In this document: piece after piece, positions 27,189 to 27,475 of the stretch | How the letters are laid out: each line of letters opens with the position of its first letter | Numbering within the stretch: position 1 is the stretch's first letter | NCBI RefSeq assembly: GCF_044324875.1 | Contig: NZ_CP172185.1 | Reading direction: 5' to 3' (one strand) | From: Escherichia coli | GTDB lineage: Bacteria > Pseudomonadota > Gammaproteobacteria > Enterobacterales > Enterobacteriaceae | DNA length: 64,000 nucleotides | Position numbers and translations under genes: made by a program | Notes under the pieces: model-generated | Databases searched by the model: none | What the model was told of the DNA's origin: nothing | The model's input: the letters and a program-made list of their open reading frames with translations, nothing else

Positions 27189-27376
27189 ACCAGCATCCCC
27201 TCCAGCAAGAAAATGACCCGTTTTTTTAAGAAAGGATCTTAAAACTGCCTTTTCAGGCGAAACGAAGCCTTATCAGATCCTTTCTCAGAACAAATAAAAT
27301 TCAATATACACAATGACTTACAAAAAAGAAGAACGGATCTGAATTTCCCGTAAAAATTTCATAAGGAGTTGTTTTG

Positions 27377-27393
27377 CGCGAGGTCGCCGCCCC
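27377..27393 (-). promoter_or_regulatory. Lambda-type cosN (GGGCGGCGACCT cohesive-end sequence, on minus strand)
   Basis: Minus strand reads GGGGCGGCGACCTCGCG, matching the lambda left cohesive end; positioned ~190 bp upstream of the Nu1-like gene as in lambda. Confidence 0.7.
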
Positions 27394-27475
27394 GTAACGG
27401 GTCCACATGCCGGAAAGGACCCATAAAAAATAAAGCCGGACTACTCCGGCTTCGTCTCTTCATGTGGTCAGGGTT

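What the first reader, a model, noticed from the sequence alone, without database searches (positions are those of the whole stretch)
27360..27400. Lambda-like cosN directly upstream of the island's small terminase
The minus strand reads GGGGCGGCGACCTCGCG, which matches the lambda left cohesive end (GGGCGGCGACCTCGCGGG) at 16 of 17 positions. Downstream the spacing and R-site-like region before the Nu1-like gene mimic lambda cosN-cosB-Nu1. This predicts which helpers (lambda/HK97-type cos phages) the island parasitises.
Basis: partly seen in the sequence, partly recalled or inferred. Interest (0 to 1): 0.6.

Follow-up and report, generated by a model that had tools for sequence, protein, structure and literature searches.

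The report
Lambda-type cos site of a phage satellite
The sequence is a complete lambda-style DNA-packaging signal in front of a small-terminase gene in a 10-kb E. coli phage satellite (a PICI). This is an expected part of a known kind of element, but here the signal and half of the terminase gene were recently copied from a lambda-like prophage.

Summary
The minus strand at 27398-27377 is identical to the lambda cos junction over 22 nt. cosQ, R3, an IHF-like site, R2 and R1 all lie within 1-2 bp of their lambda positions, and a Nu1-family terS starts 204 nt downstream of the predicted nick.

The host element is a 10.3-kb PICI at the cspD/yljB|clpS site. It is an allele of EcCIIHE3034 and has no TerL, capsid, portal or Rpp gene.

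The 494 bp from cosN to terS codon about 98 are 99.6-99.8% identical to a lambdoid prophage (strain NRZ14408 type). The flanks are identical to a sister island. One crossover lies inside cosN and the other in a conserved terS linker.

The resulting TerS is a chimera. It joins a phage-type DNA-binding domain, matched to the phage-type cosB, to a satellite-lineage C-terminal domain.

The most likely mechanism is inferred, not shown. Island TerS binds R3/R2/R1 and recruits a helper gpA-type TerL, which nicks cosN. Multimers of about four units are then packaged.

The helper prediction is only partly right. Lambda-type (Nu1/gpA) phages fit. HK97 does not.

Verdict: a new member of a known kind, of moderate interest.

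The parts
25218..35583 (-). The whole satellite island (PICI, an allele of EcCIIHE3034). Unit length 10,341 bp. All main genes are on the minus strand: int, alpA, Icd-like zone, DUF4222, primase, iterons, 85-aa ORF, SSB, PerC, ProQ/FinO, cos, terS, orf94.
   Evidence: Imperfect direct repeats at 25218-25274 and 35559-35615. RefSeq annotation of the 100% identical record NZ_CP033635.1. Same insertion site and identical AlpA protein as the IHE3034 island.
27432..27453 (-). Intrinsic-terminator-like hairpin plus T-run after the ProQ/FinO gene, directly abutting cosQ. It marks the left edge of the packaging module.
   Evidence: The same hairpin-then-cosQ arrangement is seen in sister islands.
27416..27422 (-). 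cosQ (GGGTCCT) at cos positions -30..-24, as in lambda.
   Evidence: It is conserved in all satellite and phage cos regions aligned.
27377..27398 (-). cosN: a 22-nt run identical to lambda. The predicted 12-nt cohesive end GGGCGGCGACCT is 27392->27381. The nicks, inferred by homology, fall between 27393|27392 (minus strand) and 27381|27380 (plus strand).
27351..27363 (-). I2-like A/T-rich element (TATGAAATTTTTA) at cos bp 30-42, the same position as lambda TATGAAAATTTTC.
27330..27340 (-). R3-equivalent TerS-binding site AGATCCGTTCT (cos bp 53-63).
27308..27320 (+). IHF-consensus-like site, positionally equivalent to lambda I1 (cos bp 73-85; lambda 74-86). Both have 2 mismatches to WATCAANNNNTTR.
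27275..27285 (+). R2-equivalent site AGATCCTTTCT, inverted (cos bp 108-118).
27229..27239 (-). R1-equivalent site AGATCCTTTCT (cos bp 154-164).
26604..27188 (-). terS, a 194-aa Nu1-family small terminase with a GTG start. It is chimeric. Residues 1 to about 101 are identical to the NRZ14408-type prophage TerS (winged-helix DNA-binding domain plus linker). Residues from about 104 to 194 are of the satellite lineage (98-100% identical to the LH50-c island).
26893..27386 (-). Segment captured from a lambdoid prophage: the right part of cosN, all of cosB and terS codons 1 to about 98. The crossover intervals are 27401-27381 (cosN itself) and 26903-26893 (codons 96-99, the conserved AQADAQELKN region).
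   Evidence: 2 mismatches against NRZ14408 across 27387-26893 (27387, 27324), while the flanks match the LH50-c island; identity is bimodal, with 17 records at >=99% and the next full-length matches listed at about 71%.
26068..26352 (-). orf94, a conserved small basic protein that follows terS in this satellite family. Function unknown.
   Evidence: phrog_1561. No Pfam match. 957 homologues; those named in the 120 listed are hypothetical or prophage proteins. The AlphaFold model has three helices and pLDDT 65.
26377..26422 (+). Decayed relic of a second, inverted cos ('cos2'). GGGTCCT is retained, but the 12-mer is GGGCGGGAGCAT (4 mismatches). Probably not cleavable.
   Evidence: Intact inverted cos2 sites are present at the homologous position in the IHE3034, O157 and ATCC 25922 islands.

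Best explanation
This is the functional packaging site (cos) of a phage-inducible chromosomal island of the EcCIIHE3034 family.

Proposed mechanism. After helper-induced excision and replication, the island's own Nu1-type TerS binds the three R sites of cosB through its N-terminal winged-helix domain. IHF probably bends the DNA between R3 and R2. Through its C-terminal domain, TerS recruits the large terminase (gpA-type TerL) of a lambda-like helper. TerL nicks cosN to give 12-nt 5' cohesive ends (GGGCGGCGACCT). It then pumps concatemeric island DNA into helper proheads and terminates at a downstream cosQ/cosN once the head is nearly full, at about 4 units or 41 kb.

Origin. The present cosB and TerS DNA-binding domain pair was recently captured from an NRZ14408-type lambdoid prophage. 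One crossover was inside cosN and the other in the conserved TerS linker. The capture replaced the family's private cosB and DNA-binding-domain pair.

What is shown and what is inferred. The anatomy, the homology, the mosaic structure, and the absence of TerL, capsid and Rpp genes are shown. DNA binding, TerL recruitment, the nick positions, multimer packaging and helper identity are inferred.
For: The cos anatomy is complete and in register with lambda.

The cos region and the first ~100 codons of terS are 99.6-99.8% identical to the syntenic cos-Nu1 region of a prophage. That prophage carries a full lambda-like late operon: Nu1-A-W-B-C-D-E-FI-FII-Z-U-V-G-T-H.

TerS is a full-length, intact Nu1 homologue. 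Its DNA-binding domain matches the lambda TerS structures 6HN7/1J9I with E=1.7e-40.

The island has PICI architecture and sits at the same att site as EcCIIHE3034. No TerL, portal, protease, capsid or Rpp homologue was found anywhere in the window.

Across sister islands, cosQ and cosN are conserved, while cosB changes together with the TerS N-terminus. That is the pattern expected if TerS reads cosB and a helper TerL reads cosN.

The exact chimeric TerS protein is listed in 748 index blocks of the assembly collection. In all 10 places shown it lies in the same island context, so it is not a one-off lesion.

The literature treats TerS as a PICI core component that redirects packaging (PMC10085698). 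[quoted passage not shown]
Against: There are no data on termini or transfer. The relative EcCIIHE3034 transferred only at 0-40 transductants after mitomycin C induction of its resident prophages (PMC6092414).

The TerL partner is unknown. The satellite C-terminal domain is at most 54% identical to any phage TerS in the phage collection. It was not seen overlapping an annotated TerL in any of the 60 rows sampled from 791 E. coli genomes.

A terminator-like hairpin lies between proQ and cos, and no sigma-70-like promoter was found upstream of terS. How terS is expressed is therefore unclear.

IMG/VR contigs gave no contig ends at cosN.
Confidence: 0.62

Rival explanations
1. Pure cos mimicry. 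The island is packaged by the complete terminase (TerS plus TerL) of an NRZ14408-type lambdoid helper, which recognises the copied cosB as its own. The island's chimeric TerS is dispensable for packaging. It may act mainly as an interference factor, occupying phage cosB or forming mixed dimers with phage TerS without binding that phage's TerL.
For: cosB and the TerS DNA-binding domain are essentially identical to the prophage's, so phage TerS must recognise the island cos. The island TerS C-terminal 37 aligned residues are only 30% identical to NRZ TerS. The TerL N-terminal ~28 residues, which bind TerS in lambda, are hypervariable between phages whose TerL is otherwise 95% identical. This suggests island TerS would not fit NRZ TerL. 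There are precedents: SaPIbov5 and 11capE are thought to rely on a shared helper cos (PMC5052747, PMC10111431). An NRZ-type prophage and a sister island co-reside in chicken strain 135.
Against: The terS reading frame is intact and the protein is identical in the ten assemblies examined, and it is indexed in hundreds of collection blocks. The satellite C-terminal domain is conserved in about 15% of complete E. coli genomes, which argues for a positive role. This rival and the best explanation are not mutually exclusive, because different helpers could use different routes.
Confidence: 0.22
2. Non-functional recombinant. The cassette swap produced a mismatched TerS, or a cos that no available helper uses. 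The island is then an immobile remnant inherited vertically.
For: Among 5,426 complete genomes, the chimeric module occurs in only 3, always at the same chromosomal site. The second cos of the family has decayed here. EcCIIHE3034 transferred poorly (PMC6092414).
Against: All cos sub-sites are intact, and so are the terS, int, alpA and primase ORFs. The strains carrying the island differ in neighbouring content, for example an extra island beyond clpA in TUM1886 and others.
Confidence: 0.1
3. Chance resemblance, or a degraded prophage fragment rather than a satellite packaging site.
Against: There is a 22-nt exact identity, three exact R repeats (0 of 100 shuffles reached three) and conserved spacing. 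The site lies in a bounded 10.3-kb element with PICI gene order, and the family's terS module is present in hundreds of genomes.
Confidence: 0.01

Closest known systems
Bacteriophage lambda cos (cosQ-cosN-I2-R3-I1-R2-R1) with Nu1/gpA terminase
   Same: The 22-nt cosN core and the cohesive-end sequence are identical. cosQ is at the same distance. The order, orientation and spacing of R3, I1, R2 and R1 are the same to within 1-2 bp. A Nu1 homologue (54% identical) starts about 200 bp downstream.
   Different: The R-site sequence is AGATCCKTTCT, against CGTTTCCKTTCT in lambda. The recognition-helix residues differ (lambda Q20 N21 E24; here S20 T21 N24). cosB specificity is therefore probably not lambda's. 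No gpA (TerL) gene follows terS.
EcCIIHE3034 and related TerS-encoding Gram-negative PICIs (Fillol-Salom 2018, PMC6092414; the PICI model of SatelliteFinder, PMC10085698)
   Same: Same integration site (cspD/yljB|clpS), an identical AlpA protein, a near-identical integrase, the same primase/SSB layout, the same terS-orf94 right end, and the same satellite-type TerS C-terminal domain.
   Different: IHE3034-type islands have a private cosB (GGTGGTGG repeats) with a private TerS N-terminus, a second inverted phage-type cos, and capsid and decoration genes. The window island has a phage-type cosB and DNA-binding domain in the cos1 position, only a decayed cos2, and PerC/ProQ genes in place of the capsid module.
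EcCICFT073-type PICIs with Rpp (Fillol-Salom 2019, PMC6739421; Murialdo & Feiss 2022, PMC9026076)
   Same: A lambda-like cosQ and cosN are kept for the helper TerL. A specificity protein gene lies immediately downstream of cos. The sister island in strain Ch1 shares 99.7% identical PerC/ProQ genes and carries an RppC homologue (E=3e-33) at that position.
   Different: There is no Rpp here. The specificity protein is a full-length TerS that should contact TerL itself, rather than borrowing the helper TerS. cosB has canonical phage R sites, which EcCICFT073 lacks.
pac-type SaPIs with their own TerS; cos-type SaPIbov5; cf-PICIs
   Same: As in pac SaPIs, a satellite TerS is expected to redirect the helper TerL to satellite DNA. 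As in SaPIbov5 and 11capE, the island carries a helper-type cos.
   Different: Packaging is cos-based, not headful. Unlike SaPIbov5, the island also encodes TerS. Unlike cf-PICIs, it lacks TerL, capsid, portal and adaptor genes.
Lambda-21 hybrid phages with chimeric Nu1
   Same: This is a natural TerS chimera. The crossover lies in the conserved linker that separates the cosB-binding N-terminal half from the TerL-binding C-terminal half.
   Different: The chimera is between a phage and a satellite lineage, and the other crossover lies inside cosN.

Membership tests
Lambda-type cos site | cosN: the 12-bp cohesive-end sequence with flanking partially symmetric bases | tested here: met
   22/22 identical to lambda, including GGGCGGCGACCT
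Lambda-type cos site | cosQ about 30 bp upstream of the nick | tested here: met
   GGGTCCT at -30..-24, as in lambda
Lambda-type cos site | cosB: three R repeats in the order R3 (direct), R2 (inverted), R1 (direct), with an IHF site between R3 and R2 and critical cosN-R3 spacing | tested here: met
   Exact 11-mers at bp 53-63, 108-118 and 154-164. IHF-like site at bp 73-85. Offsets from lambda are 1-2 bp.
Lambda-type cos site | Cleavage by terminase to give 12-nt 5' overhangs, and a requirement of the site for packaging | not testable with these tools
   Needs particle DNA end-mapping or cos-plasmid transduction
Nu1-family small terminase | N-terminal winged-helix DNA-binding domain, central oligomerisation region and C-terminal TerL-binding region, homologous over the full length | tested here: met
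   phrog_57 over residues 1-187. Pfam Phage_Nu1. 6HN7_B E=1.7e-40. Full-length alignment to lambda Nu1 at 54% identity.
Gram-negative PICI (EcCI family) | int, alpA and primase/replicase followed by ori iterons, co-oriented; size about 10-15 kb; dedicated att site; no lysis or tail genes | tested here: met
   Same site as EcCIIHE3034. No late-gene homologues.
Gram-negative PICI (EcCI family) | Helper-phage-dependent induction, packaging and high-frequency transfer | not testable with these tools
   Experimental. EcCIIHE3034 gave very low transfer in PMC6092414.
Rpp-type cos PICI (EcCICFT073-like) | An Rpp protein (139-154 aa) encoded next to cos, and a cosB lacking phage R sites | tested here: not met
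   tblastn with the Ch1-island Rpp (validated against RppC) gives no hit in the window (best E=1.2). cosB has three phage-type R sites.
Capsid-forming PICI (cf-PICI) | Own TerL, capsid, portal, protease and head-tail adaptors | tested here: not met
   No tblastn hits for TerL, portal, protease, decoration or major capsid protein in the window. Annotation lists none.
HK97-type cos/terminase system | HK97-like TerS and HK97 cos sequence | tested here: not met
   TerS unrelated (E=2.3). No lambda-type cosN at the HK97 left end.

The most novel reading that the evidence does not exclude
Satellite TerS proteins may be two-module adaptors: the DNA-binding domain chooses the DNA and the C-terminal domain chooses the helper TerL. 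Satellites and lambdoid phages may exchange cosB and DNA-binding-domain cassettes using cosN itself as one recombination joint, either through the shared 22-bp homology or by annealing of compatible cohesive ends. On this reading the window island is a natural satellite-phage TerS hybrid, and the swap would let it be packaged both by its ancestral helper class (through the TerS C-terminus) and by NRZ-type phages (through the copied cosB). cos-module swapping would then be a route for switching or widening helper range.
Probability: 0.3. Interest if true: 0.6.

Novelty: new member of a known kind. Interest (0 to 1): 0.38.

Why it matters
The finding places the packaging signal of a widespread E. 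coli satellite family. The family's terS type is present in about 15% of complete E. coli genomes. The TerS-encoding members were noted in 2018 but never dissected.

It shows that one island backbone can carry at least three interchangeable packaging-specificity cassettes: Rpp, a private TerS, and a TerS with a phage DNA-binding domain.

It also gives concrete, testable predictions: the termini, the R sites, and TerS-TerL pairing. These bear on which phages can mobilise such islands and their cargo. They are also useful for engineering cos-based delivery particles.

Tried and rejected
HK97-type helper: rejected.

Rpp mechanism: rejected for this island, although a sister island uses it.

cf-PICI or degraded prophage: rejected.

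A second intact cos in the window: none found. There is only a 3-mismatch chance hit at 30026-30041 and a decayed relic at 26377-26422.

Direct evidence of termini: I looked for IMG/VR contigs ending at cosN. The cos sites found were internal, and most contigs come from isolate genomes.

Naming the helper through the TerS C-terminus: the best phage match was 54% (PhiR5_1). The DNA search over 5,426 genomes returned only satellite-type contexts in the rows shown.

Relating the family's private TerS N-terminus to lambda TerS or Rpp by sequence against the PDB: no significant hit.

orf94: no Pfam match, only hypothetical or prophage-protein homologues among those named, and a low-confidence AlphaFold model (pLDDT 65). 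I did not run a fold search on such a model.

Promoter scan: no sigma-70-like promoter upstream of terS.

The second Nu1-like place in the host genome NZ_CP033635.1 could not be located with the tools.

Full report
**Observation.** Read on the minus strand, window 27398-27377 is GTTACGGGGCGGCGACCTCGCG. I joined the right and left ends of lambda (NC_001416) and aligned them to this region. The 22 nt are identical to the lambda cos junction: the last 6 nt of the right end, the 12-nt cohesive end GGGCGGCGACCT, and 4 further nt. The 16-mer GGGCGGCGACCTCGCG occurs once in the window. By simple arithmetic, an exact 16-mer is expected about 3e-5 times in 2 x 64 kb.

**The rest of lambda cos is also present, and in register.**
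- cosQ (GGGTCCT) lies at -30..-24 (window 27422-27416), as in lambda.
- An A/T-rich element is at bp 30-42, where lambda has I2.
- Three exact copies of AGATCC[G/T]TTCT lie at bp 53-63 (direct), 108-118 (inverted) and 154-164 (direct). The lambda R3/R2/R1 cores are at 57-64, 109-116 and 159-166 in the same orientations.
- These three are the only copies in the window. The chance expectation was 0.04, and no shuffle out of 100 reached three.
- An IHF-consensus-like site lies at bp 73-85. Lambda I1 is at 74-86, and both are of equal quality.
- A GTG-initiated 194-aa ORF starts at bp 205. Lambda Nu1 starts at 191.
- The cos region finds lambda and many lambdoid phages in a 2.3-Gb phage collection (about 70% identity over about 128 nt, E about 4e-5 for lambda).

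**The gene downstream.** The ORF at 27188-26604 is a full-length Nu1-family small terminase.
- It matches phrog_57 over residues 1-187 and Pfam Phage_Nu1.
- It is 54% identical to lambda Nu1 over the whole length.
- Residues 1-98 match the crystallised lambda TerS DNA-binding domain (6HN7_B, E=1.7e-40).
- The recognition-helix residues differ from lambda's (S20 T21 N24, against Q20 N21 E24). This agrees with the different 5' half of the R sites (AGATCC against GTTTCC). Murialdo & Feiss (PMC9026076) assign these residues and R3 bp 55-63 to specific recognition. The cosB specificity is therefore probably not lambda's own.

**The element.** The window is 100% identical over the queried 1.8 kb (26500-28300) to E. 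coli ECCNB12-2, NZ_CP033635.1.
- The cos-terS pair lies at the right end of a 10,341-bp island bounded by imperfect direct repeats (25218-25274 and 35559-35615). The island is inserted between cspD/yljB and clpS.
- Its co-oriented genes are integrase, AlpA, an Icd-like zone, DUF4222, a D5/P4-type primase followed by iterons (29245-29420), an 85-aa ORF, SSB, PerC, a ProQ/FinO-domain protein, then cos, terS and a 94-aa ORF.
- tblastn with the lambdoid TerL, portal, protease, decoration and capsid proteins finds nothing in the whole window.
- This is the Gram-negative PICI architecture described in PMC6092414, PMC10085698 and PMC10111431.
- The island in strain IHE3034 sits at the same site. It has an identical AlpA protein, a near-identical integrase, and the same terS-orf94 end. 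That island is EcCIIHE3034, one of the two E. coli PICIs that Fillol-Salom et al. 2018 noted as 'encoding TerS'. They could mobilise it only at 0-40 transductants.
- The satellite-type terS 3' half is found in 791 of 5,426 complete E. coli genomes. In every row shown it is annotated without an overlapping TerL.

**Mosaic origin of the cos-terS module.** I compared the window with the sister island of strain LH50-c (same site; L006) and with a prophage of strain NRZ14408 (L002). That prophage has a complete lambda-like late operon, Nu1-A-W-B-C-D-E-FI-FII-Z-U-V-G-T-H. The comparison gives a clean pattern.
- The window equals LH50-c from 27700 down to 27388.
- It equals the prophage from 27386 to 26893, apart from position 27324. 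Position 27387, the base between these two tracts, is a G in the window and a T in both comparators.
- It equals LH50-c again from about 26903 onward.
- The left crossover interval (27401-27381) is cosN itself. The right one (26903-26893) lies in codons 96-99, inside the conserved AQADAQELKN stretch.
- Identity of this 494-bp segment across E. coli genomes is bimodal. Seventeen records are at >=99% (3 island-borne, 14 prophage-borne). The next full-length matches listed are about 71%. The transfer is therefore recent.
- Chicken strain 135 carries both an NRZ-type prophage and a sister island.
- The resulting TerS is a chimera. Residues 1 to about 101 are identical to the prophage TerS. Residues 104-194 are 98-100% identical to the LH50-c satellite TerS. 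Those residues are only 30-36% identical to the prophage TerS and at most 54% identical to any TerS in the phage collection.
- The exact chimeric protein is indexed in 748 blocks of the large assembly collection. In the ten places shown it is always in this island at this site.

**Family context supports function.** In sister islands, cosQ and cosN are conserved, while cosB and the TerS N-terminus change together.
- LH50-c, O157, ATCC 25922 and IHE3034 have GGTGGTGG-type repeats and an unrelated TerS N-terminus.
- The Ch1 island shares 99.7% identical PerC/ProQ genes. It has a cos followed by an RppC homologue (E=3e-33) instead of terS.
- One backbone therefore carries interchangeable specificity cassettes behind a constant cosQ-cosN. 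This is what is expected if the helper TerL reads cosN/cosQ and the cassette protein reads cosB.
- An IMG/VR scan for the AGATCC-type R3-R2 pair returned 64 contigs. In those printed, the same cosB type is combined with several different cosN sequences, in both phages and satellites. cosN and cosB therefore reassort.

**Most likely mechanism (inferred).**
1. Island TerS binds R3, R2 and R1.
2. Its C-terminal domain recruits a gpA-type helper TerL.
3. TerL nicks at 27393|27392 and 27381|27380.
4. Packaging proceeds toward terS and terminates at a later cosQ/cosN.

With a 10.3-kb unit and lambda-size heads, about four units (41.4 kb) would fill a head. This rests on my knowledge of lambda packaging limits. 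EcCICFT073 is similarly packaged as multimers (PMC6092414). Because cosB is a copy of a phage's, an NRZ-type phage could also package the island with its own TerS. That is the main rival, and it may hold for that helper class.

The anatomy claim is right. The helper inference is only partly right.
- HK97 is excluded (PMC6739421).
- Within lambda-type phages, the three determinants point in different directions. cosN points to phages with the GGGCGGCGACCT end. cosB and the DNA-binding domain point to the NRZ type. The TerS C-terminus points to an unknown TerL N-terminal class.
- TerL N-termini are hypervariable even between otherwise 95% identical TerLs.

**Novelty.** PICIs with lambda-like cos sites, PICIs encoding TerS, and capture of helper late-region DNA by PICIs are all published (PMC6092414, PMC6739421, PMC10085698, PMC10111431). 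I found no paper in the searchable library that describes the cos sites of the TerS-encoding E. coli PICIs, or a phage-satellite TerS chimera. This is a new member of a known kind, with an instructive mosaic.

Noticed in passing
window 26377-26422 (+ strand): Decayed, inverted cos relic between terS and orf94. GGGTCCT is kept, but the cohesive-end 12-mer is GGGCGGGAGCAT (4 mismatches). It overlaps the spurious N-terminal extension of the 124-aa ORF 26068-26442.
   Followed up: partly
L018 about 11377-11394 (IHE3034), L007, L008, L015: Sister islands carry two intact cos sites in inverted orientation flanking terS. cos1 has a private cosB. cos2 has a phage-type cosB: the AGATCC R-type in O157, and a PhiR5_1-like type in IHE3034 and ATCC 25922. 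The 2019 Mol Cell paper left open why some PICIs have two cos sites. The inverted orientation is unexplained.
   Followed up: partly
L005 7173-7715 (strain Ch1 island): An island with 99.7% identical PerC/ProQ genes has capsid and decoration genes. Its cos is followed by an RppC homologue (E=3e-33) instead of terS. Rpp and TerS cassettes are therefore interchangeable on one backbone.
   Followed up: yes
window 27387: Position 6 of the cohesive end is polymorphic. It is G here, in lambda and in the O157, IHE3034 and Ch1 islands. It is T in the NRZ14408 prophage and the LH50-c island, the two closest 'parents' of the mosaic. A closer parent with G, or repair of a heteroduplex, is implied.
   Followed up: no
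L010 and L021-L083 (IMG/VR): The AGATCC-type cosB is combined with several different cosN sequences (for example GGGCGGCAGACG, GGGCGACGCGCT, GGGTAGCCATAC) while cosQ is largely kept. Some satellites there have a Nu1-like TerS N-terminus (about 72% identical to the window's) fused to the satellite-type C-terminus. Swapping of the DNA-binding domain therefore looks recurrent.
   Followed up: partly
window 26068-26352 (-): orf94 (phrog_1561) always follows terS in this satellite family. It is small, with a very basic C-terminus (RRRSQQRRESAKNTYQWKKPERLRR). It has no Pfam match, and the three-helix model is low-confidence. It is a candidate packaging or interference factor.
   Followed up: partly
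window 29245-29420: Iterated GGKGTAGAGGGCTTTT and CCYTCTACCTGCCATCTACC repeats downstream of the primase gene. This is presumably the island replication origin.
   Followed up: no
window 31670-33657 (-): Long ORFs of odd, low-complexity-looking composition, annotated in RefSeq as a 410-aa 'Icd-like' protein with a frameshifted neighbour. This corresponds to the variable zone between alpA and the replication genes in published PICI maps and may not be truly coding.
   Followed up: no
window 27476-28460 (-): A ProQ/FinO-domain protein gene and a PerC-family regulator gene occupy the place where sister islands carry gpE-like capsid and gpD-like decoration genes.
   Followed up: no
window 21809-22203: tRNA (21809-21893), an RtT element (21940-22074) and a single orphan CRISPR-DR4 repeat (22176-22203) lie next to clpA. 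In IHE3034 this position holds a full I-F CRISPR-Cas locus.
   Followed up: no
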